Origin: Flavobacteriaceae bacterium | Lineage (GTDB): Bacteria > Bacteroidota > Bacteroidia > Flavobacteriales > Flavobacteriaceae | Assembly (NCBI GenBank): GCA_965224465.1 | Contig: OZ245049.1 | Location: forward strand, 4,470,001-4,502,000 | Direction: 5' to 3' | DNA: 32,000 nt | Part shown: positions 1 to 26,424 of the stretch, in pieces | Numbering within the stretch: position 1 is the stretch's first letter | Layout: each line of letters opens with the position of its first letter | Notes under the pieces: generated by a model | The model's database searches: none | Told to the model about the DNA's origin: nothing | Seen by the model: the letters and a program-made list of their open reading frames with translations, nothing else | Translations under genes and position numbers: made by a program

Positions 1-267
1 TCTAAGCAAATAAAAAATCAACTCCTAGATTTAGAATTTTTAAATAATGATTTAGAAGTAGAAGAAGTTATTATAAAAATTAATAAGGTACTACAAGAAT
101 TCAATATTTTACTAATTATTATTGATATAGATAGTGATAGTTATCTTTTAAATAGGATCGAATTTGATAAAAAAGAAAGAGTTTTAGAGTTAGTTTCCTT
201 TTTAGGTTACGGTAAAATTAAGATATATCGTAACAAAAAGAAGAGCCGTTTTTTATTAGACGAATAA
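1..267 (+). CDS. 3' end of an immunity-like gene whose 5' end lies upstream of the window; near-identical paralogue of the last 88 codons of ORF 3147..3701
   Basis: Frame 1 reads SKQIKNQLLDLEF...KKKSRFLLDE then TAA at 265-267. DNA 1-267 equals 3435-3701 except one synonymous mismatch (63 vs 3497). Confidence 0.6.
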   Translation, partial: SKQIKNQLLDLEFLNNDLEVEEVIIKINKVLQEFNILLIIIDIDSDSYLLNRIEFDKKERVLELVSFLGYGKIKIYRNKKKSRFLLDE

Positions 268-327
268 CGGATTACAAGCAGTTCTTTGAAATACAGAAGT
301 AAATACCCTTTATGATTATAGCCAAGA
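1..327 (+). repeat. Left copy of a direct repeat of at least 327 bp (partner 3435..3761); probably continues upstream of the window
   Basis: By-eye alignment at offset 3434 gives 326/327 identical bases. Identity ends at 328/3762, just after ...tatagccaaga. Confidence 0.9.
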
Positions 328-3146: not shown

Positions 3147-3701
3147 ATGTGTTACATTTTAGAACTATCTTATTTATTAGTGAATAAGGATCAGAAAGAT
3201 CAAATAAACATTCAAAAAGAAGTAAAACTATCTGTCAATAAACCTAAAGAATACTTTTCCTTATTTGCAAGTGATTTAGCAGAAAGAGGTATTGAGAAGC
3301 CAATTGTTGAATTGCCTTGGTTTGCAATGATTAATGGATTGTATCGTGAGGGGTTTCTACAAGAATTAGATTGGAAATCTTATCCTGAAGATTTTGTAGA
3401 AGCGACTTTAGCGTTAATTAAATGTCATTCAAATTCTAAGCAAATAAAAAATCAACTCCTAGATTTAGAATTTTTAAATAATGATTTAGAAGTAGAGGAA
3501 GTTATTATAAAAATTAATAAGGTACTACAAGAATTCAATATTTTACTAATTATTATTGATATAGATAGTGATAGTTATCTTTTAAATAGGATCGAATTTG
3601 ATAAAAAAGAAAGAGTTTTAGAGTTAGTTTCCTTTTTAGGTTACGGTAAAATTAAGATATATCGTAACAAAAAGAAGAGCCGTTTTTTATTAGACGAATA
3701 A
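3147..3701 (+). CDS. Second immunity-like protein of cassette B; C-terminal half duplicated at 1..267
   Basis: 184-aa ORF 5 bp after the previous stop, ending KKKSRFLLDE. No family recognised with confidence. Confidence 0.45.
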   Translation: MCYILELSYLLVNKDQKDQINIQKEVKLSVNKPKEYFSLFASDLAERGIEKPIVELPWFAMINGLYREGFLQELDWKSYPEDFVEATLALIKCHSNSKQIKNQLLDLEFLNNDLEVEEVIIKINKVLQEFNILLIIIDIDSDSYLLNRIEFDKKERVLELVSFLGYGKIKIYRNKKKSRFLLDE

Positions 3702-3761
3702 CGGATTACAAGCAGTTCTTTGAAATACAGAAGTAAATACCCTTTATGATTATAGCCAAGA
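3435..3761 (+). repeat. Right copy of the 327-bp direct repeat
   Basis: See 1..327. Confidence 0.9.
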
Positions 3762-3795
3762 CGACAAGACTAATAAATACATTTCGGTTGTGTAA
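3724..3795 (+). pseudogene. Truncated third junction copy: toxin-less stub marking the end of the array
   Basis: After TGA (3721-3723) it reads NTEVNTLYDYSQD, then diverges to DKTNKYISVV-stop. Only 43 bp (3719-3761) of the junction block is retained. Confidence 0.6.
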
Positions 3796-3820
3796 TTTAA
3801 ACTCTGTCTGCTTGTTTTTT

Positions 3821-3924
3821 TAGCTAGACGAAAAATGGATGGATAGCCCTGCTATCGTTCTGTTTTTCAACAACGCTAGTACATAAAATAAACTATTTAT
3901 ATCGGTTATTTTGGATTGTAATGG
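3821..3924 (+). repeat. Intergenic repeat family, copy 1 (contains an imperfect 18-bp-arm hairpin at 3830-3868)
   Basis: tagctagacgaaaaatggatggatagc-cct-gctatcgttctgtttttcaacaacgctag...ttttggattgtaatgg. The same element occurs at 16215, 26203 and 26314, all in the same orientation. Confidence 0.85.
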
Positions 3925-3969
3925 GGCTTACTTTATGAATCTCTTTGGTTTTATTCTTATCGTCCATAC

Positions 3970-6900
3970 TTAAGCAATTACGCTATGCTTCTTGAAATGC
4001 TCCGCCTGTTCAAAAATTTCTCGGTATACTTCATCTCTATCTACAGGAGGATAGCCATTTTCTCCTAAGAGAAGAATAAGATCCACTTTTAGTGCTGCTT
4101 TGATGTCGGCTCTATTGTTCCAATCGGTGTATTGGGCTTTATCGTCTACCACTTTTTTTACATGCCTGGCTAGTACTATTAATTTATCTTCAGGATAATC
4201 AAAATCATATTTATGAGCTAACTGTTTTAGAATGTCGTAAAAGGCTTTCTCTTCAAAATCAATTCCTAATTCGTCTCCTGCTACAAAAGCTTGTTTGATT
4301 TGTAGTACTAAGGTGGTTAGACTTTCTGCCATATCTTCATACACCTCCGAATTTAAAATATCTGAATCCTTACGTTCGTTGTATTTTTCTACCAAACTTT
4401 GGAATTGTTTTGTGAAATCTACTCCCTGCATTTTGTTTACACTTTTAATGTCTGCAATTGCTTTGAGTAGCAGTTGCTGTAGGAGTTTGATTTTTGTATT
4501 TGGTAGTTTTATTTTATTAATCTTAGCTAAATAGTCTTCATCAAATATATCAATCTGGGTTTCGTTTTCGTCTCCAAGTTTAAAAATTTCATGTACACCA
4601 TCGCTTTGCAAAGCATCTTTTATCATTTCTCGCACCTTCGCATTCATTTGTGATGAGTCAGGAGCGTTCCCTTTTGTTAGCTTGAATACAATAGATCGTA
4701 CGGCTAAATAATAATGAATATAATCGCGTTGTTCTCCATCAAAGGCTTCGCTTCCTGCACAGATATCATAAGCAGCTTTTAATCGTTTTACGAGGTGCAT
4801 AAATCGCTTTTCAAGTCCCAAGGTAGCCTGTACAAATTCGGCTGATTTATTCAAACACTGTAACTGCTCCAAGGAAGAGCTATTGAAATAATCGGTATTA
4901 TCAAAGGTGTGAAATATCCTACTTAAAATATCCAAGTGATCTTTTACCACCACTACAGACTGTGCAATATCCTCAAAATTTTGTGAATCCGCTTGGTTAT
5001 ACATTGCCAAAGCTAAATTCATAGCCTTTTTAATCCCAATATAATCCACGACCAAGCCTTTATTTTTACCTTTAAACTTTCTATTTACACGAGAAATAGT
5101 TTGAATAAGATTGTGTTTTTGCAAAGGCTTGTAAATATAAATAGTGTCCAAAAACGGTACATCAAAACCAGTCAACCACATATCTACAACAATCGCGATT
5201 TTAAAATTTGATTTTCCTTTTTTAAATTGTTTCGCCAATTCTTTACGATACTCCTTATTCCCTAAGAGCTTGTACATTTCCTTAGGATCATCTTTACCAC
5301 GGGTCATAATCATTTTTACCCGCTCGATTGCCTTGATTTCCTTTTGCTCTTTTTCAGAAAGTGTTACGCCTTCTTCTGCAACCAACACCTCGCCCCATTC
5401 AGGTTTTAAAAGTAGTATTTGTTGATGTAATTCATAACCAATAGTACGATTTGAACATACAAACATTGCCTTTCCTATCACGGTAGCACCTTCGGATACT
5501 CGTTTTACATAATGTTTTACAAAGTCACTAGCAATAGATTTTACCACATCAGGATCGCCCAAAATGGCGTTCATATTCCCCATGGCTTTTTTACTTTCTT
5601 CTACTTGATAATCACTGGCACCATCTGTTTCGCATTGTTCGTAGTATTGCTCTATCTCAGCAAGCTTACTATTATCCAAAACCACTTTTGCAGCACGTCC
5701 TTCATAGACGATACGAACCGTAATTTCATCCTCTACGGATTCCGTCATAGTATAGGCATCCATAATTTCTCCAAACACATCCAAGGTGGCATCAATAGGT
5801 GTTCCTGTAAACCCAACATAGGTAGCATTAGGTAAAGAATCGTGTAGGTATTTTGCAAAACCATAGGTTTTTTCTATACCGGTGTCTGTTACTTTTATTT
5901 TTTGATCTAAGTTTATTTGACTTCGGTGTGCCTCATCAGAAATACAAATAACATTGTTTCTATCGGTCAGTAATTCTATATCCTCGTTAAACTTGTGAAT
6001 GGTAGTTAGAAAAACTCCTCCAGACTGTCTGCCCTGGAGTAAGTCTCGTAAATGAGAACGACTCTCTACCGAAACAATAGTAGCATCGCCAACATAGCCT
6101 TTGGCATTGGTAAATTCTTCTGACAACTGACTGTCTAAATCCGTTCTGTCAGTAATAAGAATAATGGTAGGACTTTTAAAATAGGTACTACGCATTAACA
6201 AACGTGTTAAAAACAACATAGTAAAACTTTTACCACAACCTGTTGCTCCAAAGTAAGTCCCCCCCTTACCATCACCCTCTGGTTTTTGATGCAACTTTAT
6301 ATTTTTAAATAATTTATTGGCTGCATAAAACTGGGGATAACGACACAGAATTTTAATTTCCTTATTACCCGAATCGGGCATATATATAAAGTGATGGATA
6401 ATTTGCCGTAAACTATCCGTATTCAACATACCTTTTACTAAAGTGAACAGACTTTCAATACCATCTACCTCTTTCTTTTCTTCAAATAACTGCCTGTCGG
6501 ATGCCGACCTCCATGCATAGTAAAACTCAAATGGGGCAAAAAAAGATCCTGCCTTGGTATTTACACCATCAGAAATCACACAAAAGGCATTGTACTTAAA
6601 CAATTCAGGAATATCACGTCGGTAGCGTGTGGTTATCTGTGTATAGGCATCTTGGATGGTTACATTTTCGTTTATAGCCGTTTTAAACTCAAACACCACC
6701 AATGGGATTCCATTAGTATAGATGATACCGTCTGGTATACGCCCTTCTGGATGATGCTGTACAATGTTCAATTGGTTTACAAAGCGATAGGTATTCTTGT
6801 CTTTTTCGCTAAAATCTATCAAGCGAATAAAAACATCTTTTTTGGTATGATCTTCACGCTTCAATACAAAACCATTAGAAATCCAATCCATGAGTTGCTT

Positions 6901-7134
6901 ATTAGAATCGTATAAATCCGAGCTAGGAAGCACTTCTAGTTTTCGAACAATCGATGCTATTTCTGCCTTAGAAAGTTCTACATACTGTGAATGTAAGTAG
7001 TTTTTTAAATCTTCTTTTATCAAGACTTCATCATTCTTTCGATTGATTTCATCTCCTCTTAAGTGTTTAATTCCTTCGGAATCTAACAGGGCTATAAAGG
7101 CATTTTCTAATTGTGCTTCGTTGAATTTGTTCAT
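3970..7134 (-). CDS. hsdR: Type I restriction enzyme, R subunit
   Basis: 1054 aa with helicase motifs GATGCGKSFTM (Walker A), ISDEAHRSQ (DEAH) and QTISRVNR (motif VI). Lies in a locus with hsdM and hsdS. Confidence 0.93.
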   Translation of the reverse strand: MNKFNEAQLENAFIALLDSEGIKHLRGDEINRKNDEVLIKEDLKNYLHSQYVELSKAEIASIVRKLEVLPSSDLYDSNKQLMDWISNGFVLKREDHTKKDVFIRLIDFSEKDKNTYRFVNQLNIVQHHPEGRIPDGIIYTNGIPLVVFEFKTAINENVTIQDAYTQITTRYRRDIPELFKYNAFCVISDGVNTKAGSFFAPFEFYYAWRSASDRQLFEEKKEVDGIESLFTLVKGMLNTDSLRQIIHHFIYMPDSGNKEIKILCRYPQFYAANKLFKNIKLHQKPEGDGKGGTYFGATGCGKSFTMLFLTRLLMRSTYFKSPTIILITDRTDLDSQLSEEFTNAKGYVGDATIVSVESRSHLRDLLQGRQSGGVFLTTIHKFNEDIELLTDRNNVICISDEAHRSQINLDQKIKVTDTGIEKTYGFAKYLHDSLPNATYVGFTGTPIDATLDVFGEIMDAYTMTESVEDEITVRIVYEGRAAKVVLDNSKLAEIEQYYEQCETDGASDYQVEESKKAMGNMNAILGDPDVVKSIASDFVKHYVKRVSEGATVIGKAMFVCSNRTIGYELHQQILLLKPEWGEVLVAEEGVTLSEKEQKEIKAIERVKMIMTRGKDDPKEMYKLLGNKEYRKELAKQFKKGKSNFKIAIVVDMWLTGFDVPFLDTIYIYKPLQKHNLIQTISRVNRKFKGKNKGLVVDYIGIKKAMNLALAMYNQADSQNFEDIAQSVVVVKDHLDILSRIFHTFDNTDYFNSSSLEQLQCLNKSAEFVQATLGLEKRFMHLVKRLKAAYDICAGSEAFDGEQRDYIHYYLAVRSIVFKLTKGNAPDSSQMNAKVREMIKDALQSDGVHEIFKLGDENETQIDIFDEDYLAKINKIKLPNTKIKLLQQLLLKAIADIKSVNKMQGVDFTKQFQSLVEKYNERKDSDILNSEVYEDMAESLTTLVLQIKQAFVAGDELGIDFEEKAFYDILKQLAHKYDFDYPEDKLIVLARHVKKVVDDKAQYTDWNNRADIKAALKVDLILLLGENGYPPVDRDEVYREIFEQAEHFKKHSVIA

Positions 7135-7153
7135 TTTAAGTTAAATTTATTAG

Positions 7154-7213
7154 ACTACTTATTGTACTACCTATTATACCACCTATTGTACTACCTATTA
7201 TACCACCCACTTA
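7154..7213. repeat. Tandem 12-bp repeat, 4 good units plus 1 degenerate, in the spacer upstream of hsdR
   Basis: actacttattgt / actacctattat / accacctattgt / actacctattat / accacccactta. Equivalently, a perfect 24-bp unit twice (7160-7207). Confidence 0.9.
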
Positions 7214-8542
7214 TTTTATTTCATTATCGCTAGTATTTGTAATAACCCAAATACCTCTAGTACCACCTGCTCTTTTAATAACTCCTTTGTTTTTTAACAA
7301 GCCTATATGTTCTTGTGCAGCAGATCTATTAATTTTTAGATGATCAGCAATTTGAGAAATAGAAACTTTAGGATTATTTACAATAAGCTTAAAAACCTCT
7401 TTTTGCCTGGCTGTTAAATCACTGACTTGTTCGGTAACATGGTCAGTGACTTGTACGGTGACTTGTTCGGTAGTTGGAAAAACAATGCGTAAAAAATTGT
7501 CAGAAAATTTAAAACAATCTTTATTATAAGCTGCTAACATTCTTGGCACACCCGAACCTAATTGCTCTACTAAATCTAAATCCTTAAAAATCCGTATCAG
7601 TTCTTTATTTCTAGGAATAGAAAATCCTTCAAAAAATTCTGATTCACTTAAACCTTCCACCAGAGACCCTGCCGATGTAATCTCTATTCTATCCTTAAAA
7701 ATTTCAAATTTTGGAGCTACTTCACGGCTAAAATCATTGTGTACAAAAGCATTTATTACAGCCTCACGCAATGCCATAGCATTCCATAAGCGATGTTCTA
7801 TGCGGTCCTTTTCTGTAATTTTAGCAAGCGTACGGTTTTCTATGGCTAACTTATCCAATACACTTTTACAGGCTTTAATTAAGGAGCAATACCCATACTC
7901 ATTGGTTTCTGTAAGAGCTACACGATCCGTACCTGCATATTTGGCTACCTTTATGGATATATTATTAATATCCGATAATAAATACCCTGCGTAATTCCAT
8001 TGATCATCTTCGTTTTTCAGCTCTAAATTAACAGCAAACTGCCCATTTAATGTCTTTTCTTTTTCTTGATAATAAATATGCAGCTGTTCAAAAGCTAAGG
8101 ATCGTTTGGGCGACAGTATTTTACTAATCGTGTTTCTGGTCCTGGAAGCATATAATGTATCAATAATACGTTGCGGCATAGGTTCGGATGCCGTTCCTAT
8201 CCGTACATAACAGCCCTTTTCAGACATTCCGTACTTCTTTTTGAAATACGGTTTTTCGCTACCACTAGCCACCGTTACTTTTACCAATTGTTTGCCCTCT
8301 TGCTCCATAAGCGAAATATCAAACAAGCCCATACAGGAGGGTTGGATATTGGTTTTTAAACGGTCTTTTATACGCAACATCACATCATCTACATCACTTA
8401 TTCCAACAAATACTCCGTGTTTGTTCACTCCAAAAATTACCACACCTCCTAGCTGATAGTTTAAAAAAGCAATCACTTCCTTTTCTAGGTCTATGTCCTT
8501 GGTGAGTATTTCTTTATATTCGATGCGATTGGTCTCTGTCAT
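7211..8542 (-). CDS. AlbA_2 (Schlafen-like) + HATPase_c_4 + C-terminal wHTH protein, often annotated as a RecG-like putative transcriptional regulator
   Basis: N-terminus IEYKE...EVIAFLNYQLGGVVIFGV (AlbA_2-like). Mid-region REAVINAFVHNDF...IEITSAGSL...IPRNKELIRIF...EQLGSGVPRM (HATPase_c_4-like). C-terminal HTH SISQIADHLKINRSAAQEHIGLLKNKGVI. Confidence 0.8.
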   Translation of the reverse strand: MTETNRIEYKEILTKDIDLEKEVIAFLNYQLGGVVIFGVNKHGVFVGISDVDDVMLRIKDRLKTNIQPSCMGLFDISLMEQEGKQLVKVTVASGSEKPYFKKKYGMSEKGCYVRIGTASEPMPQRIIDTLYASRTRNTISKILSPKRSLAFEQLHIYYQEKEKTLNGQFAVNLELKNEDDQWNYAGYLLSDINNISIKVAKYAGTDRVALTETNEYGYCSLIKACKSVLDKLAIENRTLAKITEKDRIEHRLWNAMALREAVINAFVHNDFSREVAPKFEIFKDRIEITSAGSLVEGLSESEFFEGFSIPRNKELIRIFKDLDLVEQLGSGVPRMLAAYNKDCFKFSDNFLRIVFPTTEQVTVQVTDHVTEQVSDLTARQKEVFKLIVNNPKVSISQIADHLKINRSAAQEHIGLLKNKGVIKRAGGTRGIWVITNTSDNEIK

Positions 8543-8566
8543 GGGGTAATTGTTAATACTTAATTA

Positions 8567-9721
8567 TTAATGGTTGATGACTCCTTTTTCCTCTTTTAGT
8601 AAAAGTACTATCTTTTCAACTAATGAAAAGAATTGATCTTCTTCTAATTTTGAAATTAAAAAATCTGTCAGATTATAAATCTCATCATCATTCAAAACAT
8701 ATGTTTTTGTAGCAAAATGAGCCCATTTTTTATTCTTATCTTGAGTGAAATTATTTACTAGATGTTTATTTTCTTCGGAAGACAATTTTAAATCGGCATA
8801 TTGTTCTTTATTGTTTAATGCCTTGTTTTGTAATTCAACAATTATCTTTAACTCTTTTATGGGAGTCAATAATCCAGCATATATAATCGTAAACATTATA
8901 TTAGGATTGCTCCTAGAAACAAAATAACGTAAAATCTTTTTTAAGTTCCCACTAGACTGATTAAGCGTAAACTCTTTATTATCTTTAGGAATAACTTCGT
9001 TTATTTGTTGCGTAATATGTTCCCTTGCTATTTCACTAATTTTAATGACACTGTTTATAGCTTTTTGATTTTTTATATAAAATTCAAAATCTTCTTTTTT
9101 CATCGTAGGAGTACTTAAATTATAAATGTTTTGTGCAAAATCCTTTAAGAAAACAATGTATTTATCCTTGGATTCTATCAAATAAGGACCGCTATTTCTC
9201 ATTACTTGTTGCATGAGTTGCTGATGGGTGATATTTATGAATTTCTCACTTCCCAACTTATGCGAATACATGACCGCTTTTAAAGAAAGTATCACACCTA
9301 TATATCCGTTTTCACACGCATTCTCTTTGACAATAGTTTTCCAATAATCTACTAAATCATTACCTTCGATATGATGCTTTACTTTATTTTCTATAATAAT
9401 GGCTTGTTGCGAATTTTCAAGTAGAAGATCTATTCTCCCGTTAGCTATCGTACTATATTCCGTATGTATTTTAAAGTTAGAAAAATCTTGCAGTCCTGTT
9501 TTCTTTTTCCCTAATTCGGAGGCAGCAATGAGCTCTATAAAACTTTTAATAAACAAATCCCCCAAACTATGTTCTTCATTTACATTAAAGAAAAAAGCAT
9601 AGATATTAGACAATACATTTTCGTAATGTGGCTGCTTGGCGATGCCTAAAAAAGTTAAGGGCTTTTTTTTAATAACAGGAATTTTATTTTCCGATAAAAA
9701 TTTCTCTAATAATGCTAACAT
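8567..9721 (-). CDS. PD-(D/E)xK nuclease superfamily protein (PDDEXK_4-like)
   Basis: HYENVLSNIYAFFFNVNEEHSLGDLF, then GRIDLLLENSQQAIIIENKVKH (D...ExK core). Confidence 0.65.
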   Translation of the reverse strand: MLALLEKFLSENKIPVIKKKPLTFLGIAKQPHYENVLSNIYAFFFNVNEEHSLGDLFIKSFIELIAASELGKKKTGLQDFSNFKIHTEYSTIANGRIDLLLENSQQAIIIENKVKHHIEGNDLVDYWKTIVKENACENGYIGVILSLKAVMYSHKLGSEKFINITHQQLMQQVMRNSGPYLIESKDKYIVFLKDFAQNIYNLSTPTMKKEDFEFYIKNQKAINSVIKISEIAREHITQQINEVIPKDNKEFTLNQSSGNLKKILRYFVSRSNPNIMFTIIYAGLLTPIKELKIIVELQNKALNNKEQYADLKLSSEENKHLVNNFTQDKNKKWAHFATKTYVLNDDEIYNLTDFLISKLEEDQFFSLVEKIVLLLKEEKGVINH

Positions 9722-9817
9722 GTTTATTTAATTTATAATTAATCATCAACCATTAATATTCCTCTTTCCTAATCTCCCCTTCCGCAAAATCTTGCACTAC
9801 AGATTGTATGGAATAAT

Positions 9818-10102
9818 TCACAAAACATTCAAACAACTTCCAATTTCTGTGCTTGGCCATTTGCTTTCATCGGTGCACCAACCGAATAGTATTTCTTCCA
9901 AAAGATATTCGAAATTTGCTTTTAAAAAAAGGATTGATTCCTCCGTACAATCATATTCTGGAATTAAATACACGGTGGATTCATCATGTTTATTAGAAGC
10001 GTCCTTATGTATAGGGTCTTCTGGAAATATGCTGTTTACCCAATCAAATAAGGCTTGTTTGGGCGTGATAATTAAAGCGGTTCTGTTTACGGATGCTAAC
10101 AT
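9818..10102 (-). CDS. Small conserved hypothetical protein, probably truncated by a 1-nt frameshift near 9855-9858
   Basis: 94-aa ORF co-oriented with its neighbours. The shifted frame stays open for a further 37 codons (KQMAKHRNWKLFECFVNYSIQSVVQDFAEGEIRKEEY) down to a stop at 9753. Confidence 0.45.
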   Translation of the reverse strand: MLASVNRTALIITPKQALFDWVNSIFPEDPIHKDASNKHDESTVYLIPEYDCTEESILFLKANFEYLLEEILFGWCTDESKWPSTEIGSCLNVL

Positions 10103-10128
10103 GTTTATCTAATTTATTTCATATATAA

Positions 10129-11139
10129 TTAACCCTTATTTTTTTCTAATCCTTTTACCATTTTATCAAAATCGGATACAATTTTCTGAGTTTTATTAAA
10201 CACATCATACTCGGTATGTGCTTTTTTTTCTGCTTGTTTTTTAGATTTTTTACCTAAACCTTCTAAAACCAAGTATTCATTAAAACTTAAAAATTTATTT
10301 ACACTCAAAGCCAATTGCTCCATGGTAAAGGTGTTTTCTCTTTCAATTAAACCTTCTATATAATCAAAGTACCCTGTAACTGTGCGTTCTAATTGTTTTA
10401 TCTCTTTTTCTTGCAAATAATTTTTAGCAACACTTGTGTCCGACTTAATAATACGACCCTCTGGTGCATTTTTCCAATTGGTTAAACCCATATTTTCTTG
10501 CCTACGATCCGCCTTTAAATAGATGATTTCTGCGGCTGTTTTACCTGTAATCGCAAAGTGGAATTTGTTTTGGATTGTTGCATAAAACCTTTTAGTTACA
10601 GATGAATTCTTATCATAATCAATGCTACACTCAGCAAAAATATCGGTTACTTGTTGGTAAATGCGTCTTTCACTTGCGCGAATAGAGCGAACCCTTTCTA
10701 GTAATTCTTTAAAATAATCTTTACCAAATAATGTTTTCCCTTGTTTTAAACGTTCATCATCTATGGTAAACCCCTTGATGATATACTCTTTTAACGTTTT
10801 TGTTGCCCAAATACGAAACTGAGTAGCTTTTGTAGAATTAACGCGGTACCCAACCGAAATAATAGCATCTAAATTGTAAAAAGTTACTAATTTGGTTTGA
10901 GTTTTCCCAGTAATAGCACCATGTTGAGTGGTTGTTTCCAATTTGGAAATAACCATCTCTTTTTTCAATTCTCCGCTTTCGAATATATTACGTAAATGTT
11001 TGCTAACCGCTGGCACACCAACAGAAAAAAGTTCCGCCATCGCTTTTTGTGTAAGCCAAACACTTTCCTCCATAAGTACTACATCTAAACGAATATCTCC
11101 GCCTGGAGCTGTGTATAATAAAAAATTAGTCTCTAACAT
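10129..11139 (-). CDS. rhuM: RhuM family (virulence protein RhuM-like) DNA-binding protein
   Basis: N-terminus LYTAPGGDIRLDVVLMEESVWLTQKAMAELF...VSKHLRNIF...YNLDAIISVGYRVNS..ATQFRIWAT is the characteristic RhuM pattern. This family is a frequent passenger in type I R-M loci. Confidence 0.8.
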   Translation of the reverse strand: MLETNFLLYTAPGGDIRLDVVLMEESVWLTQKAMAELFSVGVPAVSKHLRNIFESGELKKEMVISKLETTTQHGAITGKTQTKLVTFYNLDAIISVGYRVNSTKATQFRIWATKTLKEYIIKGFTIDDERLKQGKTLFGKDYFKELLERVRSIRASERRIYQQVTDIFAECSIDYDKNSSVTKRFYATIQNKFHFAITGKTAAEIIYLKADRRQENMGLTNWKNAPEGRIIKSDTSVAKNYLQEKEIKQLERTVTGYFDYIEGLIERENTFTMEQLALSVNKFLSFNEYLVLEGLGKKSKKQAEKKAHTEYDVFNKTQKIVSDFDKMVKGLEKNKG

Positions 11140-11233
11140 AGGTGTCTCTTATTCATTTATAATTAATATTACGCTTTCCTTTATGTGTTTGATACCTCCT
11201 AAATTTCTATATATATTCATGATGGTTTTTTTA

Positions 11234-11440
11234 TTATTTATTTCCCTTCTCCACCTCCAACATAGCAACTGGAACCGACAACTTACCCGAGATTAATTGA
11301 GGTAATAAAGTGTTGCGAAGTTTGGTGAGTGATTGATTTTTTTTTGTTTTTACAACTGAATATCTAAAATTTCTTTCATTCAACAGTCGCTCTAGTTTTA
11401 ATAGAATAGGTTTGTTACCTATCATATAAGTCACGCACAC
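11234..11440 (-). pseudogene. Remnant of an hsdS 3' end (last ~31 codons plus stop region)
   Basis: ...LTKLRNTLLPQLISGKLSVPVAMLEVEKGNK versus the intact HsdS C-terminus LTKLRDTLLPQLISGKLSVPDAMLEVEKEIN. DNA ~11248-11330 matches ~11666-11748 with about 6 mismatches. Confidence 0.7.
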
Positions 11441-11636
11441 ACCTATTTATGTAACCATTTAATCCAGTTCCGTTTCTCGCAAGACTTTTCATTTCCTCAA
11501 CATTATCCCTGCCAGCTCTAGTATAACTGTAGCTATAAATTCTAGAATTTCCACTAAATTTGACTGAAATGTTATCTAAGCCTATTTCATAAGCTTGTAC
11601 ACCAGAATTACCACTATTATTGCTATAAGTCTCCAT
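11415..11636 (-). CDS. KTSC domain-containing small protein
   Basis: 73 aa. AYEIGLDNISVKFSGNSRIYSYSYTRAGRDNVEEMKSLARNGTGLNGYINRCVR fits the KTSC (PF13619) pattern (..Y.....L.V.F..G..Y.Y......y..l.....G.y.N..i). Confidence 0.6.
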   Translation of the reverse strand: METYSNNSGNSGVQAYEIGLDNISVKFSGNSRIYSYSYTRAGRDNVEEMKSLARNGTGLNGYINRCVRDLYDR

Positions 11637-11650
11637 ATTATACTTTTTTC

Positions 11651-13009
11651 TTAATTAATTTCTTTCTCTACCTCCAACATAGCATCTGGCACCGACAACT
11701 TACCCGATATTAATTGAGGTAATAAAGTGTCGCGAAGTTTGGTTAGTTTACCAGAAAGAATATTGTTACTGTCCTTTTTAGAATTAAAATTTGATAGAGA
11801 ATTTTCAATTAAACATTGTCCACTCTTTGGTGGAACTAGAACTTCAACTTCTGATAAGCGTAATCTACTGAGTTCTGTTTGACCTGTACTTCCTTCTCCC
11901 ATAGCTTCAATATAATCTTCAATTGAAAACATTAAATATTGAAAAAAACTAGTTTCTAATATACTTTTATTTCCCCTTACAACTGTAACATGAGAATCTA
12001 CTATGGTAGGCTCATCTAAAGATAAAATAGTCGCAATTCTTCCTAATGTTCCAGTTCCTGTGGAATTAATTACAATATCTCCGATTTCCAGTAACCTTCC
12101 TTCTGTTTTTCTTTTGGTTGGATCATTCCTTCTGGCTAAAGAATAATTTACAATATGATTTCTAATACATTTTTGATTAAGAACTCTAATCCCTCCATCT
12201 TCAATATATTTTGGAGAAACACCTCTTCTTAATTCCACTGTAATATCTTTTAGCGGTTTTACTCCCCACCCTACAGGAATCCATTTCTCCAACACTTCAT
12301 TAAACACAAAGCTATCTGGAAACAGTTCATTAATTTCAGGTGTATTTTTCTTGGTAACTGCTAACCTTAGCCCTCCTTTTTTACGCAAAGGCTCTGGCAA
12401 GGCTTCTACATTTCCACCATTTTTTACCAAGAAATTATCTAATACAGGATCAAAATCTACAAACCAAGACTGAAACAAGGCTTGTGCCATGGCTTCTAAA
12501 CTTTCGTTCATCTTGCGGTTGAGTTCTATTTTTGCATCTAAATCGCCCAGTATTTTAGCTATTGCTTTTTGGGTTGGGAGGGGTGGTAGTTTGAATTTGT
12601 ATTGTTCAATTGCGTCTCTGTCCCCCCGAGGCATCTTTGTCCCTTTAGCTGTAGCTACGGTGTAATCTATAAAATCTTGCCCTGACAGAATGGAATACAA
12701 GAACTTAGGAGCTAATTTCCCTGAAGACCTAAATACTAATACATCATTAGAACATCCTCCATCGCGATCTGCGAACCAAACTTTTTTAAAATAAGTTCTA
12801 ATATTTGAAAAAAGGACATCGTTTTCTATATACGACCTAGCCGTAGTCGCAGAAGGTAATCCTGACGAAACTGATATCCCTCCAAGGTCAGGCATCATAT
12901 TTTCTGTTGAGATATAATTATCCAAACTAAGTTCTGACACTTTTATTTTCTTTGAAACAAACTCAATAACATCCCCCAAAACAACTTCTCTCCATCCACC
13001 ATTACTCAT
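11651..13009 (-). CDS. hsdS: Type I restriction-modification system, specificity subunit
   Basis: 452 aa with two target-recognition halves. They are separated by the conserved helix LPPLPTQKAIAKILGDLDAKIELNRKMNESLEAMAQALFQSWFVDFDP, and the protein ends with LRDTLLPQLISGKL. Overlaps hsdM by 8 bp. Confidence 0.9.
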   Translation of the reverse strand: MSNGGWREVVLGDVIEFVSKKIKVSELSLDNYISTENMMPDLGGISVSSGLPSATTARSYIENDVLFSNIRTYFKKVWFADRDGGCSNDVLVFRSSGKLAPKFLYSILSGQDFIDYTVATAKGTKMPRGDRDAIEQYKFKLPPLPTQKAIAKILGDLDAKIELNRKMNESLEAMAQALFQSWFVDFDPVLDNFLVKNGGNVEALPEPLRKKGGLRLAVTKKNTPEINELFPDSFVFNEVLEKWIPVGWGVKPLKDITVELRRGVSPKYIEDGGIRVLNQKCIRNHIVNYSLARRNDPTKRKTEGRLLEIGDIVINSTGTGTLGRIATILSLDEPTIVDSHVTVVRGNKSILETSFFQYLMFSIEDYIEAMGEGSTGQTELSRLRLSEVEVLVPPKSGQCLIENSLSNFNSKKDSNNILSGKLTKLRDTLLPQLISGKLSVPDAMLEVEKEIN

Positions 13010-14567
13010 AACCCAACATTTTTAAGTTAGTACGAATCGCCACATCCAAATCCTTAGCCTCCTCCATTTGAGTAAATAATAATTGGGTCAATGACCCCAT
13101 TTTGGTTTCAAAAGGAATACCATCGCCTTCTTCTTCGGCAACACCAACATAACGCCCAGGCGTTAATACAAAGTCATTTTTTTCTATTTCGGCTAAAGTG
13201 GCAGATTTACAATATCCTGCTATGTCTTCGTAAGTTCCGTCTTTACTTTCACCTCTCCAAGCGTGGTAGGTTCTGGTAATTTCGGCAAGGTCGTCTGTAG
13301 TTAGTTCTTTATGGGTACGGTCTACCATAGTTCCCATATTACGGGCATCTATAAATAAGGTTTCACCTTCTCTATTTCTATGGTTTCTGGTTTGGTCTTC
13401 AAATTGTTGTTCCTTCTTGTTCTTAGTCATAAACCATAAACAAACAGGAATTTGAGTGGTATAGAACAACTGCCCTGGTAAGGCAATCATACAATCTACC
13501 AAATCGTTTTCTAGCATTTGTTTACGGAGTTTTCCTTCACCCGAGGTATTGGAACTCATAGAACCATTTGCCAATACAAAACCAGCGGTTCCGTTTTCGG
13601 ACAATTTAGAAATCATGTTTAAAATCCACGCATAATTAGCATTACCTGTAGGTGGTGTATCGTAACCGTTCCATCTAGCATCGTCGGTTAATTCATCTTT
13701 TCCACGCCATTCCTTTTGGTTAAAGGGTGGGTTTGCCATGATATAATCGGCTTTTAAATCGGGATGTTGGTCTTTAAAAAACGTATCGGCAGGCACAGCA
13801 CCAAGGTTGGCAGAAATACCACGAATGGCTAAGTTCATTTTTGCCAGTTTGTAGGTCGTAGCCGTGTACTCTTGTCCATAAATAGAAATGTCTTTGGTGT
13901 TTCCCTTATGGTTTTGCACAAACTTAATAGACTGCACAAACATACCTCCCGAACCACAGGCAGGATCGTAAATTTTCCCTTTGTAAGGTTCTAGCATTTC
14001 GGCAATCAGGTTTACAATACATTTTGGGGTGTAGAATTCTCCACCACCTTTTCCCTCGGCAGAAGCAAATTTCCCTAAAAAGTATTCGTAAATACGCCCT
14101 ACAATATCGTTTTCCTTGTCGGCAATGGTATCAATATCGTTAATGGTATCCAATAAAGACGATAGCTTACTCGGATCTAAATTTAATCTCGAAAAATAAT
14201 TATCAGGTAAAGCTCCTTTTAAGCTTGGGTTGTTTTTTTCTATGGTGCTCAATGCCGTATCTATTTTTAATGCGATATCGGTTTGCTTGGCATTTTCTAT
14301 AATATATTCCCAACGAGATTCTGGCGAAAGGTAGAATACGTTTTTCATGGTATAGAACTCCACCATGTCTAGGTATTTATCTTTGCCTTCGGAGATGAGT
14401 TCTTGTTTTCGTTCTTCGAATTTATCGGAGGTAAATTTCAGGAATATCAATCCTAAAACTACGTGTTTGTATTCAGAACTTTCTACAGTTCCTCTTAATT
14501 TATTTGCGGAATCCCAAAGCGTTTCTTCGATAGATTTTGATTTTTTTGAGGTAATTTTTTTTGCCAT
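13002..14567 (-). CDS. hsdM: Type I restriction-modification system, N6-adenine DNA methyltransferase subunit
   Basis: HsdM_N-like N-terminus (LWDSANKLRG), motif I DPACGSGGMF and motif IV MANPPFNQKEW. Confidence 0.93.
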   Translation of the reverse strand: MAKKITSKKSKSIEETLWDSANKLRGTVESSEYKHVVLGLIFLKFTSDKFEERKQELISEGKDKYLDMVEFYTMKNVFYLSPESRWEYIIENAKQTDIALKIDTALSTIEKNNPSLKGALPDNYFSRLNLDPSKLSSLLDTINDIDTIADKENDIVGRIYEYFLGKFASAEGKGGGEFYTPKCIVNLIAEMLEPYKGKIYDPACGSGGMFVQSIKFVQNHKGNTKDISIYGQEYTATTYKLAKMNLAIRGISANLGAVPADTFFKDQHPDLKADYIMANPPFNQKEWRGKDELTDDARWNGYDTPPTGNANYAWILNMISKLSENGTAGFVLANGSMSSNTSGEGKLRKQMLENDLVDCMIALPGQLFYTTQIPVCLWFMTKNKKEQQFEDQTRNHRNREGETLFIDARNMGTMVDRTHKELTTDDLAEITRTYHAWRGESKDGTYEDIAGYCKSATLAEIEKNDFVLTPGRYVGVAEEEGDGIPFETKMGSLTQLLFTQMEEAKDLDVAIRTNLKMLGYE

Positions 14568-14792: not shown

Positions 14793-15883
14793 GGCTCAAC
14801 TTGTAAATAGCGTATTTATTTCGTAACTTACTGAAAAACAGAATCATTATGGATAATTCAGCTATTTTAAAATATTTTGACTGTCTAGATGTAACTAAGC
14901 AGGATATTTTGCTTAAAGAATTTCAGTCTCTTTGCAAATCAGGAAGTTATGTAGACATTATTAAAATGAGAGGGAATGCTTTAGATGACAGAAGGGGTGA
15001 ATGCCCTTACTGCAATGGCTATCACTATATAAAAGCAGGTGTTGATAAAAACAGCAGGCGTTATAAATGTAAAGATTGTAAACGTACTTTTACTGAATTT
15101 ACCGGCAGTTGGCTAGCTGGGATACACAAAAAGCAACGCATACCAGCCTTTTTAAAAACACTTGAATTGAATTTAAGTTTGGTTAAAACAGGAAAGGATC
15201 TTTCCATAGATCCAGGGACGGCATTTAGATGGCGTCATCGTTTTTTGTCTGCTATGTTTCAAGAAACCACAGGTTATTTCAAAGGAATCACCGAGAGTGA
15301 TGAGACCTTTTATTTACACAGTCAAAAAGGTAAAAAGTGTGTACATAGACCTCCCAGAAGTAGATCCGAAAAGAAAGGGGCAGGTATAACAAAAGAATAC
15401 GCAACGGTATTAACAACCCAAGATAGAGCAGAACTATGCGTGTCTAAATTTACAAATATGGGCAGAATTACCAAGAGTAATATAAAAAACACTATCGGAA
15501 GCATGGTAGATAATAGAACCATATTTTGTTCTGATGGACACCGTAGTTTTACAGGGTTTAGTAAGGATTTACATTTAGAGCATCATGTTTTAAACAGTAG
15601 TAAAAACCAACGAGTCAAAGGGACTTATCATATTCAGCACATCAATAGTTTGCATAGTAGGTTAAAGACATTTTGTAACGTGAAATTAAAAGGAGTATCC
15701 ACAAAATATCTTCAAAAATATTTAAATTGGCAAACAATTAAAGATTCATATCGTAAAGAATCAAATTGGGTAGTTACTGTCCTTAAGTACTCAATGAAAC
15801 GTTCAAATGCAATTAAAATATATAACAATATCCAAACTGATTATGACAAAATTTTTATAACAACGCTAAATGCTAGTTGAGCC
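14793..15883 (+). mobile_element. Complete IS1595-family insertion sequence (1091 bp) with 8-bp target-site duplication
   Basis: Imperfect terminal inverted repeats: GGCTCAACTTGTAAATAGCGTATTTAT (14793-) and the reverse complement of the right end GGCTCAACTAGCATTTAGCGTTGTTAT (21/27 match). The direct repeat ATATTCAT lies at 14785-14792 and 15884-15891. Confidence 0.85.
14849..15880 (+). CDS. IS1595-family (ISXO2-like DDE) transposase
   Basis: N-terminal zinc ribbon CPYCNGYHYIKAG...YKCKDCKRTF. Catalytic candidates SDETF, FCSDGHRSF and HINSLHSRLK. The stop codon lies inside the right inverted repeat. Confidence 0.85.
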   Translation: MDNSAILKYFDCLDVTKQDILLKEFQSLCKSGSYVDIIKMRGNALDDRRGECPYCNGYHYIKAGVDKNSRRYKCKDCKRTFTEFTGSWLAGIHKKQRIPAFLKTLELNLSLVKTGKDLSIDPGTAFRWRHRFLSAMFQETTGYFKGITESDETFYLHSQKGKKCVHRPPRSRSEKKGAGITKEYATVLTTQDRAELCVSKFTNMGRITKSNIKNTIGSMVDNRTIFCSDGHRSFTGFSKDLHLEHHVLNSSKNQRVKGTYHIQHINSLHSRLKTFCNVKLKGVSTKYLQKYLNWQTIKDSYRKESNWVVTVLKYSMKRSNAIKIYNNIQTDYDKIFITTLNAS

Positions 15884-16214
15884 ATATTCATCTGATTATT
15901 CATAAGGATTGTAAAACCCTGAACCTTTAGATGTAGTACAATCTATAGTTATACTCCCGTCTTTAGATTGCACTAGACCACAACCTTCACAGTTTTTACA
16001 TTCCTGTCTTTTTCTACCCAACTCATTTTTTCTTTTTTTCATCATTTTTTATCTTTACAATTAAATATTGCTTTCAATAGAAGCAACATTTAAGAATAGG
16101 ACATTTATTTAAAAATGGTTGGATTGGGTTTTTATCGGAAAAAATATTTTTGTTTTCACATACGTATTTCCATAAACTCATCTGATAAAATAAGAGTATC
16201 AATTACAGGAGTTA

Positions 16215-16325
16215 TATCTAGACGAAAAATGGATGGATAGCTTAGCTATCGTTCTGTTTTTCAACAACGCTAGCACGTAAAAAAAACCTATTTATATCGG
16301 TGATTTTGGATTGTAATTGGTATCA
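16215..16325 (+). repeat. Intergenic repeat family, copy 2
   Basis: tatctagacgaaaaatggatggatagc-tta-gctatcgttctgtttttcaacaacgctag...ttttggattgtaattggtatca. The stem is identical to copy 1 and the loop differs. Confidence 0.85.
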
Positions 16326-16371
16326 TATAGACCTAGATAAGGTTACTGAGAAATGACTGTGAGAAAACATA

Positions 16372-22072: not shown

Positions 22073-23317
22073 TTAAATTTTCGGTTTTACTACATCTAAA
22101 TCTACCGAAGAATTATTGGTGTCTTTATACACAGTAAAACCTAATTTACTAGTCAATTCCTCATCCTTTTTTCTATGTACTCCTTTACCTGTCAAAGAAC
22201 CATCACCTTCAGCAAACAAATAATAAAAACCATTATCTATTGACTTTGGAAGACGCTTGTGATCTTGAGCTGTTGCATTACCAAGACAATCAATTCCATC
22301 AATTATAGTCTTTACGTCAATCCCTATTAATTTTACACTTCCAGAACTAGTTCCATCATCTTCTATAAAATCAATAACATCCGAATCAGAAAAGGTTTTA
22401 TCCGTTCTAAAAATAACAGCACTCGTACCTGACTGATCCCAATAGCATGCGTCAGAACTTAGGAAGTGTATTTTCAAGTTCGGAACATCAGGATTATTTT
22501 GATCGAAATAAAAACCAAATCCTCCTCTTGCTTCTAAGTAGTCTGTAGCATAAGTTTCTAAGTCAGCGTTAGAAAGGTCTATAATTGTATATTTATCTAC
22601 CGAAGCATCAATTTCTTTAGTGAAATCTATCGCATTAAAAGCTATTGTAATACTTTTTCCTGATGCTACAGGATATTCTTCCCCTGAGCCAGGAATCTGA
22701 ATAATCCAATTTGCATATACTTTTTTTGTTATATCATATTGTTCTGAAACAATAAATGATTTTCTCGATTCAGAGTAAGCGGATGTTCCATGTAAATTAG
22801 CAACATATAAGCCATCTGCATAAATAGTCTCAGAAGAATTATTGTGTATTTGTATAAATTGATCTTTAAACAGTATGGAGTAATTAGGTTCATTACTACC
22901 TGAATAATAGAGTTGCTTGATAACAAGTCCTGCATTAGCAACACCTAATTTTAGTTGCAATTCCTTTTTAGTAATTTGATTGCTTGTTACAAGAACTCCT
23001 GCTAGGTTTCCTGTTACATTAATTCCTTCTATTTTTTCATCAACTATAATGTTATATGTTCCTTCAGGAACACTACTTATTTGTACGAGTCCAGAAGCAC
23101 TAACAGAAGCCTCTATTTCATTTTTATTTGTAACATTAAGTATTTTAGCCTTAAGATCTGCTAAGTTAACTTTTGCTCCCTTTGGCAATATAAGTTGCAG
23201 TTCTAATTGTCCTAAGTTATCGTCATCATCCTCCTCACAAGAAGTGAAGAATAGGCAACTTGTCATAACTAAACAAACTACTACTAATTTTTGAATAATA
23301 CTTTGTGAATTTCTCAT
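22073..23317 (-). CDS. Surface lipoprotein with Ig-like/CarboxypepD_reg-like and lamin-tail-like regions (possibly DUF4876-like)
   Basis: Lipoprotein signal ...LFFTSC followed by EEDDDD. GLVIKQLYYSGS...FKDQFIQIHNNSSETIYADGLYVANL resembles a lamin-tail domain. Its start overlaps the receptor gene stop by 4 bp (ATGA). Confidence 0.5.
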   Translation of the reverse strand: MRNSQSIIQKLVVVCLVMTSCLFFTSCEEDDDDNLGQLELQLILPKGAKVNLADLKAKILNVTNKNEIEASVSASGLVQISSVPEGTYNIIVDEKIEGINVTGNLAGVLVTSNQITKKELQLKLGVANAGLVIKQLYYSGSNEPNYSILFKDQFIQIHNNSSETIYADGLYVANLHGTSAYSESRKSFIVSEQYDITKKVYANWIIQIPGSGEEYPVASGKSITIAFNAIDFTKEIDASVDKYTIIDLSNADLETYATDYLEARGGFGFYFDQNNPDVPNLKIHFLSSDACYWDQSGTSAVIFRTDKTFSDSDVIDFIEDDGTSSGSVKLIGIDVKTIIDGIDCLGNATAQDHKRLPKSIDNGFYYLFAEGDGSLTGKGVHRKKDEELTSKLGFTVYKDTNNSSVDLDVVKPKI

Positions 23318-25965: not shown

Positions 25966-26202
25966 TTCTGTAATTCTATTTTTTTGTGTAAAAATTATAA
26001 CCTAATAATCAATATTTTGATATGAAACAAAGAATTATTTTTAGTTTTATAATTTAAGTTCGGCAAATATACTACTTATTTAGACTTAATAAGGATAAGA
26101 ACGATCGCATTTAAGAATTTTAATGAACGTTGGTTAATTTTTACTAGTAAGTATCTGTAGATAAGCTTTATATAGAGGATGTGTAAAATGATATTGGTAT
26201 TA

Positions 26203-26313
26203 TAGCTAGGCGGAAAATGGATGGATAGCCGTAGCTATCGTTCTGTTTTTCAACAACGCTAGAACATAAAATAAACTATTTGTATAGGTCATTTTGGATT
26301 TTAATTGGTATTA
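26203..26313 (+). repeat. Intergenic repeat family, copy 3 (first unit of a tandem pair)
   Basis: tagctaggcggaaaatggatggatagc-cgta-gctatcgttctgtttttcaacaacgctag...attttggattttaattggtatta. Confidence 0.85.
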
Positions 26314-26424
26314 TAGCTAGGCGAAAATTCTTAGGATAGTCTTAGTTATCGTTCTGTTTTTCAACAACGCTAAAATGTATAAGATACTATTTATATTGGT
26401 GATTTTGGATTGTAATTGGTATCA
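26314..26424 (+). repeat. Intergenic repeat family, copy 4 (second, more diverged unit of the tandem pair)
   Basis: tagctaggcgaaaattcttaggatagtcttagttatcgttctgtttttcaacaacgctaa...attttggattgtaattggtatca. Confidence 0.8.

What the first reader, a model, noticed from the sequence alone, without database searches (positions are those of the whole stretch)
3821..3924. ~105-bp intergenic repeat family with a conserved stem, variable loop and strand-specific G-U pairs
Four same-orientation copies lie at 3821, 16215, 26203 and 26314. The core GAAAAAUGGAUGGAUAGC-loop-GCUAUCGUUCUGUUUUUC folds into an 18-bp-arm hairpin with one 2x2 internal mismatch. The apical 6-bp stem is identical in three copies, while the loop differs each time (CCT, TTA, CGTA; CTTA in the diverged copy). 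Several pairs are G-U only when read on the + strand and would be A-C mismatches on the - strand. That points to an RNA-level structure on the + strand. A conserved 3' tail follows (AACAACGCTAG ... TATTTATATCGGTNATTTTGGATTGTAAT). I cannot match it to a named element. It could be a small ncRNA, a REP/MITE-like element or a protein-binding site.
Basis: seen in the sequence. Interest (0 to 1): 0.7.

Follow-up and report, generated by a model that had tools for sequence, protein, structure and literature searches.

The report
Palindromic miniature transposon (MITE) family
The four ~110-base repeats are real, but they are left-truncated copies of a 159-base non-coding palindromic mobile element found only in this Lutibacter-like flavobacterium, so this is an ordinary kind of genomic parasite, not a demonstrated new RNA gene.

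Summary
Four same-strand copies of a 108-111-nt unit sit at 3821, 16215, 26203 and 26314, where 0 are expected by chance. The hairpin, variable loops, + strand G-U pairs and conserved tail are as described.

Contigs from metagenome ERZ25073217 carry proteins identical to the source genome's. They supplied about 15 more copies and fragments. The complete element is about 159 nt and is an imperfect palindrome over its whole length (RNA MFE -46 kcal/mol, z -6.5). Its ends are inverted repeats, TACCAAATACA...TGTAATTGGTA. It has no ORF. Identical 3-nt flanks (TAA/TAA or TTA/TTA) occur in 6 of 10 copies. Deletion derivatives, solo ends and IS insertions also occur.

The window copies lack most or all of the left arm.

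Covariation does not support a conserved RNA: 87.5% of cells pair against 86.2% in shuffles, and two stem pairs are broken in 6-7 of 11 copies. A modest + strand wobble bias remains unexplained (7 G.T against 1 A.C).

There is no Rfam, plasmid, phage or viral match, and no relative in 80 other Flavobacteriaceae loci.

Verdict: a lineage-specific MITE family, a new member of a known kind. No autonomous partner was found.

The parts
3771..3785 (+). Remnant of the element's left terminal inverted repeat (TAATAAATACATTTC), preceded by TAA.
   Evidence: AAATACATTTC is identical to positions 5-15 of the left end TACCAAATACATTTCC of full-length copies.
3786..3821 (+). Solo 36-bp right-end inverted repeat of an IS256-family IS. 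It replaces the rest of the left arm of copy 1 and is not part of the family itself.
   Evidence: 100% identical to the ends of 9 IS256 copies in L083-L091.
3821..3927 (+). Copy 1: the 107-nt unit (central palindrome plus right arm). Central hairpin at 3830-3868. The right end has diverged (TGTAATGGGGC).
   Evidence: (146 bits).
16197..16322 (+). Copy 2: short left arm with an 11-nt left inverted repeat TATCAATTACA (16197-16207), then the unit at 16215-16322. Central hairpin at 16224-16262.
   Evidence: (146 bits). The left repeat matches the reverse complement of the right end at 10 of 11 positions, read directly.
16326..16342 (+). Degenerate start of a further unit after copy 2 (TATAGACCTAGATAAGG).
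   Evidence: Read. It resembles TATAGCTAGACGAAAATGG. This is an inference and a weak one.
26191..26202 (+). Remnant of a unit's right end (ATATTGGTA) plus TTA, just before copy 3.
   Evidence: It is the same TTGGTATTA junction as between copies 3 and 4.
26203..26310 (+). Copy 3: 108-nt unit of the ATGGATGG subfamily. Central hairpin at 26212-26251.
   Evidence: (148 bits).
26314..26421 (+). Copy 4: 108-nt unit of the TTCTTAGG subfamily, head to tail with copy 3 across TTA. Central hairpin at 26323-26362, largely degraded.

Best explanation
The repeats belong to a lineage-specific family of non-coding, non-autonomous DNA transposons (a MITE).

The complete element is about 159 bp. It is an imperfect palindrome over its whole length.

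Shown: the architecture, the copy multiplicity, the absence of any ORF, the flanking T(A/T)A trinucleotides, and decay products (internal deletions between short direct repeats, a 65-nt mini form, solo ends, IS insertions).

Inferred: a DDE transposase supplied in trans recognises the two inverted ends and inserts the element at TWA, duplicating those 3 bp. From my own knowledge of IS families, that footprint matches the IS1031/ISL2 subgroups of the IS5 family.

The four window copies are derivatives that have lost most or all of the left arm. All break at the base of the central palindrome (TA|TAGCTAG), so they are probably no longer mobile by that route.

The variable loop is simply the unconstrained centre of the palindrome. 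The conserved 'tail' is the right arm and transposase-binding end.

As a side effect (inferred), the central stem followed by a T-run looks like a weak bidirectional terminator. This fits the elements' position just downstream of gene 3' ends.
For: Family and ends: cmsearch and nhmmer find 6 full-length copies of 153-161 nt and about 10 partial ones in roughly 240 kb of the same species. Those contigs carry proteins 100% identical to ones on the 5.24-Mb source contig.

Palindrome: a full copy folds end to end, MFE -46.4 kcal/mol, z = -6.5, 0 of 200 shuffles as stable. The left arm and the reverse complement of the right arm match at 55 of 78 aligned positions, including 10 of the 11 terminal nucleotides.

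Flanks, read: TAA/TAA in L083a, L084a, L084b and L082b; TTA/TTA in L087b and L090a; a one-base difference in L087a and L082c. The repeats are direct, not inverted, and the 4th flanking base differs.

No ORF spans a copy.

Decay products typical of MITEs: L082b has a deletion between two GAAATGGA repeats. L082c has a deletion between GTTCT repeats and is split by IS1595 with an 8-bp TSD. L090a is a mini form with only the two ends. L091a and L093 carry solo left ends.

Orientation relative to neighbouring genes is mixed (gene tables).

Distribution: nothing in 1.45 Mb from 80 other Flavobacteriaceae, including the nearest MAG. Nothing in plasmids, phages or viral contigs.

MITEs with TIRs of at least 10-15 bp and TSDs of 2-10 bp are known by the thousand in Flavobacterium genomes (PMC11602168).

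The terminator-like pattern is found on both strands of c1-c3.
Against: No autonomous IS with matching ends was found in the DNA I could read. The 5.24-Mb source genome itself was not readable.

The TSD evidence is only 6 of 10. If TAA and TTA are treated as a mere flank preference, concordance gives Fisher p of about 0.07.

No empty site was available to prove insertion.

Five left-arm-less copies share the same left boundary, and c3 and c4 are head to tail yet belong to different subfamilies. Simple cut-and-paste plus random decay does not predict either fact.

The + strand wobble bias is not predicted by a purely double-stranded DNA mechanism.
Confidence: 0.7

Rival explanations
1. A multi-copy structured RNA that works on the + strand: either a small RNA gene family, or a cis-acting 3'-UTR or terminator module. 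Under this reading the hairpin is kept by selection on the transcript.
For: In the family consensus, transition mismatches between the arms are 7 G.T/T.G against 1 A.C. A.C mismatches appear only as singletons in individual copies. The + strand RNA MFE is lower than the - strand in all 5 full-length copies, by 4-14 kcal/mol, and in 9 of 11 central hairpins. One G-C to U-G double change occurs in L087b. All four window copies are on the same strand. The stem plus U-run passes a terminator pattern scan.
Against: There is no covariation: 87.5% of cells paired against 86.2% in shuffles, and the RNAalifold covariation term is +0.73. Pairs 17-44 and 18-43 are broken in 6-7 of 11 copies. The apical stem-loop is deleted in L084a and L084b. 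No Bacteroidota-type promoter (TTTG ... TAnnTTTG) lies in or beside the element. Orientation relative to flanking genes is mixed in other loci. There is no Rfam match. The 7:1 bias has a two-sided p of about 0.07 and may reflect the history of a single master copy. The terminator pattern is met equally on the - strand.
Confidence: 0.12
2. A palindromic element mobilised as single-stranded DNA by an HUH/Y1 enzyme. It would be REPIN-like with a RAYT, or an IS200/IS605-derived palindrome-associated element (PATE). The hairpin of one particular strand would be the recognition signal.
For: The palindrome spans the whole element, like a REPIN doublet. The wobble bias is strand-specific. Half-elements are frequent, comparable to REP singlets.
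Against: Concordant 3-nt direct repeats flank 6 of 10 copies, whereas such elements make no duplication. The ends are true inverted repeats, not subterminal hairpins next to a fixed tetranucleotide. No Y1 transposase appeared among the called genes of any locus, though sampling covers only about 5% of the genome.
Confidence: 0.1
3. The copies are fragments of the ends of a known IS or of a prophage.
For: The IS1595 right end contains TTTTTATAACAACGCTAAATGCTAG, which resembles TTTTTCAACAACGCTAG in the element. Copy 2 lies about 300 nt from an IS1595. Copy 1 abuts an IS256 end.
Against: In L082 the IS1595 is inserted into an element copy, with its own 8-bp TSD TTTTTCAA. In L084 it is inserted into an element's right end, with TSD ACTATTTA. 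The two are therefore separate entities. The ends of the IS256, IS30-like and IS1595 elements are unrelated to the element's ends. There is no match in the phage or viral collections.
Confidence: 0.04

Closest known systems
Whole-length palindromic enterobacterial MITEs (ERIC/IRU of about 127 bp, YPAL of about 168 bp in Yersinia). Recalled from my own knowledge.
   Same: The element is non-coding, intergenic and 110-170 bp. The whole sequence is an imperfect palindrome that can fold into one long hairpin when transcribed. Internal deletion variants exist. Copies often lie close to gene 3' ends.
   Different: There is no sequence relationship. The host phylum is different (Bacteroidota). The flanking duplication here appears to be 3-bp TWA. 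Effects on RNA processing are untested here.
Correia elements (CREE/NEMIS) of Neisseria and RUP of Streptococcus pneumoniae. Recalled from my own knowledge.
   Same: These are abundant species-restricted MITEs with inverted ends and short A/T-rich duplications. Size variants arise by internal deletion. They can carry promoter or terminator activity.
   Different: Those duplicate TA and are not palindromic over their whole length. No functional signal has been shown for the present element.
MITEs catalogued in Flavobacterium and Bacteroidota genomes (PMC11602168)
   Same: The operational definition fits: 50-800 bp, TIRs of at least 10-15 bp, TSDs of 2-10 bp, no transposase, genus- or species-restricted clusters.
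   Different: I could not compare against that catalogue. No hit to this family turned up in any collection I searched, so it is probably an undescribed cluster.
REPIN/REP elements mobilised by RAYT
   Same: Hairpin-forming doublets with decaying singlets, intergenic, hundreds of copies.
   Different: REPINs have no target duplication and carry a short conserved 5' tetranucleotide. Here there are 3-nt direct flanks and true terminal inverted repeats.

Membership tests
Bacterial MITE (non-autonomous class II element) | Small (50-800 bp) and without a coding capacity of its own | tested here: met
   108-161 nt. Only ORFs of 20-43 aa overlap the copies by chance, and none spans a copy or recurs between copies.
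Bacterial MITE (non-autonomous class II element) | Terminal inverted repeats of at least 10-15 bp | tested here: met
   Full-length copies: TACCAAATACA against TGTAATTGGTA at the tips, and 55 of 78 aligned arm positions identical. In the window, c2 has a 10/11 left repeat, c1 has a 15-nt remnant, and c3 and c4 have none.
Bacterial MITE (non-autonomous class II element) | Target-site duplication flanking each insertion | tested here: inconclusive
   Identical 3-nt flanks in 6 of 10 copies that have both ends (four TAA, two TTA), and two more differ by one base. Chance identity of random trimers is about 2%. A shared T(A/T)A flank preference cannot be excluded (p about 0.07).
Bacterial MITE (non-autonomous class II element) | Many dispersed copies in one genome or lineage | tested here: met
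   About 20 copies and fragments in roughly 240 kb of the species. None in 80 other Flavobacteriaceae loci.
Bacterial MITE (non-autonomous class II element) | A cognate autonomous IS with the same ends | tested here: not met
   No IS in the sampled DNA has TACCAAATACA ends. The IS1595, IS256, IS30-like, ISL3 and IS4-like elements were checked. Only about 5% of the genome could be read, and many MITE families lack a surviving partner.
Bacterial MITE (non-autonomous class II element) | Insertion polymorphism (filled against empty sites) | not testable with these tools
   No allelic contig covers a copy with an empty site. The nearest MAG is only 80.7% identical and its intergenic DNA cannot be aligned.
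Curated RNA families (Rfam 15, including the Flavobacteria/Bacteroidetes motifs) | Match to a covariance model at or near its gathering score | tested here: not met
   0 hits at gathering threshold in the window. Only chance-level hits with E above 0.5 around c1 and around two full-length copies.
Structured functional RNA (generic) | Base pairs maintained by compensatory change | tested here: not met
   1 double change, covariation score 0.157 against 0.137 in shuffles (58 of 500 reach it), two pairs mostly broken; covariation term +0.73.
REPIN/RAYT or IS200/IS605-derived PATE | No target duplication, and hairpins instead of terminal inverted repeats | tested here: not met
   Direct 3-nt flanks and true inverted ends are present.
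REPIN/RAYT or IS200/IS605-derived PATE | Cognate Y1/HUH transposase gene in the genome | not testable with these tools
   None appears in the gene tables of the fetched loci, and the full genome was not readable.
Intrinsic (bidirectional) terminator | G+C-containing stem followed by a T-run | tested here: met
   The pattern scan flags GATAGC-loop-GCTATC plus a T-rich tail on both strands of c1-c3, 2 sites per region against 0.1-0.2 in shuffles. This is a pattern match only. The stem has just 3 G-C pairs and function is untested.

The most novel reading that the evidence does not exclude
The 108-111-nt unit is not just a decayed MITE. It would be a discrete module whose + strand fold, as RNA or as single-stranded DNA, is under selection. 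It would spread or be rebuilt by a one-ended or site-specific route that always starts at TA|TAGCTAG and can stack units head to tail. That would explain three things: the shared left boundary of five copies, the c3-c4 junction between different subfamilies, and the 7:1 wobble bias.
Probability: 0.12. Interest if true: 0.5.

Novelty: new member of a known kind. Interest (0 to 1): 0.22.

Why it matters
For annotation, these hairpins should be masked as a mobile repeat and not called as sRNA genes or riboswitch-like motifs.

The family marks recently rearranged, IS-rich parts of a Lutibacter-related genome. Those parts include a type I restriction-modification and defence island, an immunity-gene array and a polysaccharide locus.

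It offers a small natural case for studying how palindromic MITEs decay. Examples are deletions ending at the base of the central hairpin, IS1595 insertions into the element, and head-to-tail stacking.

If the central stem plus T-run does terminate transcription, the element would also be distributing bidirectional terminators between genes. None of this challenges current understanding.

Tried and rejected
Collection scans. An exact 20-mer (GTTCTGTTTTTCAACAACGC) found 0 hits in genome contigs, 0 in viral contigs, and one unrelated GC-rich chance hit in metagenome contigs. In hindsight the 20-mer spans a C/T polymorphic site (TTTTT[C/T]AAC), so relatives could have been missed. A degenerate pattern on viral contigs was also empty.

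blastn in 'distant' mode, with the short and the full element, found nothing in plasmids or phages.

Source genome. Exact look-ups of window proteins returned 'not on record', although the proteins are in the collection on a 5,241,564-bp contig. I therefore reached the species through IS transposase cluster members held on metagenome contigs.

Group II intron or retron link. One copy (L083a) abuts a truncated RVT_1 gene. The link is rejected because no other copy does, and there is no Rfam intron or retron hit.

Derivation from IS1595. Rejected because the IS is inserted into the element with its own TSD.

IS30-like element as the partner. I considered it because IS30 targets its own ends and forms tandems. 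Its ends are unrelated.

Bacteroidota promoter motif. No acceptable -33/-7 pair was found.

A TA or 4-bp duplication does not fit the flanks. Only 3 bp fits.

An empty-site test against the closest MAG failed, because synteny at the DNA level stops at the gene end.

Full report
**1. The observation**

The four copies are real. The 28-nt core and the 29-nt tail motif each occur four times, all on the + strand, at the stated places. None was found in 100 shuffles. The repeat finder reports a 111-nt family, with 26193-26303 and 26304-26414 exactly head to tail.

Alignment shows the invariant block ATCGTTCTGTTTTTCAACAACGCTA. The 10 + 6-pair hairpin with a 2x2 internal loop is in the MFE and centroid folds of c1-c3. 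c4 has largely lost the stem.

**2. Context**

The window comes from a Flavobacteriaceae genome near Lutibacter. PyrB is 96% identical to MAG NORP167 and 86-88% identical to Lutibacter species.

- c1 lies between a DUF6630 gene (+) and hsdR (-).
- c2 lies between an IS1595-family IS (14793-15883, TSD ATATTCAT) and an ABC-2 permease gene (-).
- c3 and c4 lie between a split TonB-dependent receptor gene (-) and an MBL-fold gene (-).

No ORF spans a copy. Rfam gives nothing.

**3. Finding relatives**

Exact-pattern scans of the genome, metagenome and viral collections were empty or gave chance hits. So was blastn against plasmids and phages. A covariance model built from the four copies found nothing in 1.45 Mb around pyrB in 80 other Flavobacteriaceae. 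A 159-nt profile also found nothing there.

In the closest MAG, DNA-level synteny (80.7%) stops exactly at the stop codon of the MBL gene. Its equivalent intergenic region has no element.

The source genome is a 5,241,564-bp contig in the protein collection, but its DNA could not be fetched. Transposase cluster members led instead to contigs of metagenome assembly ERZ25073217. These carry proteins identical to those of the source genome, so they are the same species. The element is frequent in this DNA, which totals about 240 kb including the window.

**4. Anatomy of the family**

Six copies are 153-161 nt long: L083a, L084a, L084b, L087a, L087b and L082a. Each has a ~50-nt left arm that the window copies lack: TACCAAATACATTTCCAAGTGACGGTTTAGAAATGGAATTATTTTTTGTTC.

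The left arm is an imperfect inverted copy of the right arm. They match at 55 of 78 aligned positions, with the tips TACCAAATACA and TGTAATTGGTA. The whole element folds into one long hairpin, -46.4 kcal/mol, z = -6.5.

The three nucleotides on each side of the element are:

| Copies | Left / right flank |
|---|---|
| L083a, L084a, L082b | TAA / TAA |
| L084b (after removing an IS1595 and its 8-bp TSD) | TAA / TAA |
| L087b, L090a | TTA / TTA |
| L087a | TAT / TAA |
| L082c | TAC / TAA |
| L082d, L082a | discordant |

These flanks are read. The repeats are direct, not inverted, and the next base outward differs. This is the signature of a 3-bp TWA target duplication. With ten cases the statistics are only suggestive.

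Decay products are those expected of a MITE:

- a deletion between two GAAATGGA repeats (L082b);
- a deletion between two GTTCT repeats, plus an IS1595 insertion with TSD TTTTTCAA (L082c);
- a 65-nt mini form consisting of the two ends (L090a);
- solo left arms (L091a, L093);
- right halves (L086a, L093).

**5. The window copies**

All four lack most or all of the left arm.

- c1 keeps 15 nt of the left end (3771-3785). A solo 36-bp IS256 end follows (3786-3821), then the unit.
- c2 keeps an 11-nt left repeat (16197-16207, 10 of 11 positions matching) and a 7-nt linker.
- c3 and c4 have none of the left arm. They are joined head to tail by TTA, and a remnant of another unit's right end precedes c3.

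All of them, and a fifth copy in L093, start at the same point, TA|TAGCTAG, which is the base of the central CTAG...CTAG palindrome. c3 and c4 belong to different 5'-arm subfamilies (ATGGATGG and TTCTTAGG), both of which also occur elsewhere. They are therefore not a simple local duplication. I take the shared boundary to be a deletion hot spot at the foot of the hairpin. That is an inference, and the point remains unexplained (note).

**6. RNA or DNA?**

On 11 copies the central helix pairs in 87.5% of cells, against 86.2% after shuffling the 3' letters (56 of 500 shuffles reach this). There is one double change. Pairs 17-44 and 18-43 are broken in 6-7 copies, because the 5' arm varies while the 3' arm CGTTCTGTTTTT stays fixed. 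L084a and L084b have lost the loop and part of the apical stem.

On six full-length copies RNAalifold gives a covariation term of +0.73. No Bacteroidota-type promoter is present. Orientation relative to flanking genes is mixed in the other loci.

On the other side, the + strand does fold better. Its MFE is 4-14 kcal/mol lower in all five full-length copies. The consensus arms differ by 7 G.T/T.G against 1 A.C. A.C mismatches occur only as singletons. The two-sided p is about 0.07, and the bias may reflect the history of one master copy. I treat it as a weak, unexplained signal that keeps a strand-specific (RNA or ssDNA) reading alive at about 10-20%.

The apical stem plus T-run meets a simple terminator pattern on both strands of c1-c3. 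The copies lie 42-170 nt downstream of minus-strand gene ends. A terminator side effect is therefore plausible but untested.

**7. Comparison with known elements**

The element meets the operational definition of a prokaryotic MITE: 50-800 bp, TIRs of at least 10-15 bp, TSDs of 2-10 bp and no transposase (PMC11602168). The missing piece is a partner IS, which was not found in the roughly 5% of the genome I could read.

In architecture it is closest to the whole-length palindromic MITEs ERIC and YPAL. In duplication it is closest to IS5-family (IS1031/ISL2-type) elements. Both comparisons rest on my own knowledge. It is not a REPIN or a PATE, because it has direct flanks and true inverted ends. 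It is not a fragment of the IS1595, IS256 or IS30-like elements present here.

**8. Verdict**

This is a previously uncatalogued, lineage-restricted MITE family, a new member of a known kind. Its MITE-like alternative is right, and its RNA inference is unsupported though not excluded. Interest is low to moderate.

Noticed in passing
window 1-300 and 3435-3734; 285-327, 1765-1807, 3719-3761: There is a 300-nt exact duplication covering the 3' part of a DUF6630 gene and its downstream DNA. A 43-nt repeat (TTTGAAATACAGAAGTAAATACCCTTTATGATTATAGCCAAGA) follows three small genes in an array that includes PoNi and DUF6630 immunity-like genes. The arrangement looks like a cassette array of polymorphic-toxin immunity genes.
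   Followed up: no
window 3786-3821: A solo 36-bp right-end inverted repeat of an IS256-family IS. It is identical to the ends of nine full copies in the same species and abuts copy 1 of the repeat.
   Followed up: yes
window 7148-7207: About five tandem copies of a 12-nt unit (TATTRTACYACC) lie immediately upstream of the hsdR start codon at 7134. This could be a length-variable tract (family D7).
   Followed up: no
window 3970-14567: A type I restriction-modification locus (hsdR, hsdS, hsdM) has three genes inserted between hsdR and hsdS: Schlafen/AlbA_2-HATPase (7211-8542), a PDDEXK_4 nuclease (8567-9721) and RhuM (10129-11139). A 104-nt hsdS-like direct repeat lies at 11227-11330 and 11644-11747, 89% identical.
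   Followed up: no
window 14793-15883; L082 9945-11035; L084 5043-6133: An IS1595-family IS with 8-bp target duplications. At 2 of 6 independent insertion sites in this species it sits inside or at the end of a copy of the repeat element (TSDs TTTTTCAA and ACTATTTA). This suggests a preference for this AT-rich palindrome.
   Followed up: partly
window 23314-25965: The TonB-dependent receptor is split into two ORFs (24499-25965 and 23314-24429). The nearest MAG has an intact 800-aa gene at the same position (L002 13018-15420), so the window gene is probably a frameshifted pseudogene.
   Followed up: partly
L083 923-1556 (same as L085 14439-15072): One full-length element copy overlaps the 3' end of a truncated group II intron-type reverse transcriptase gene, inside a nest of five different IS families.
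   Followed up: partly
window 3894-3922, 16289-16317 and the equivalent right ends: Near the right end every copy carries T[TG]ATTTTG, one mismatch from the Bacteroidota -7 box TAnnTTTG and facing outward. No -33 TTTG lies at the right distance. An outward promoter is not supported, but it has not been tested experimentally.
   Followed up: partly
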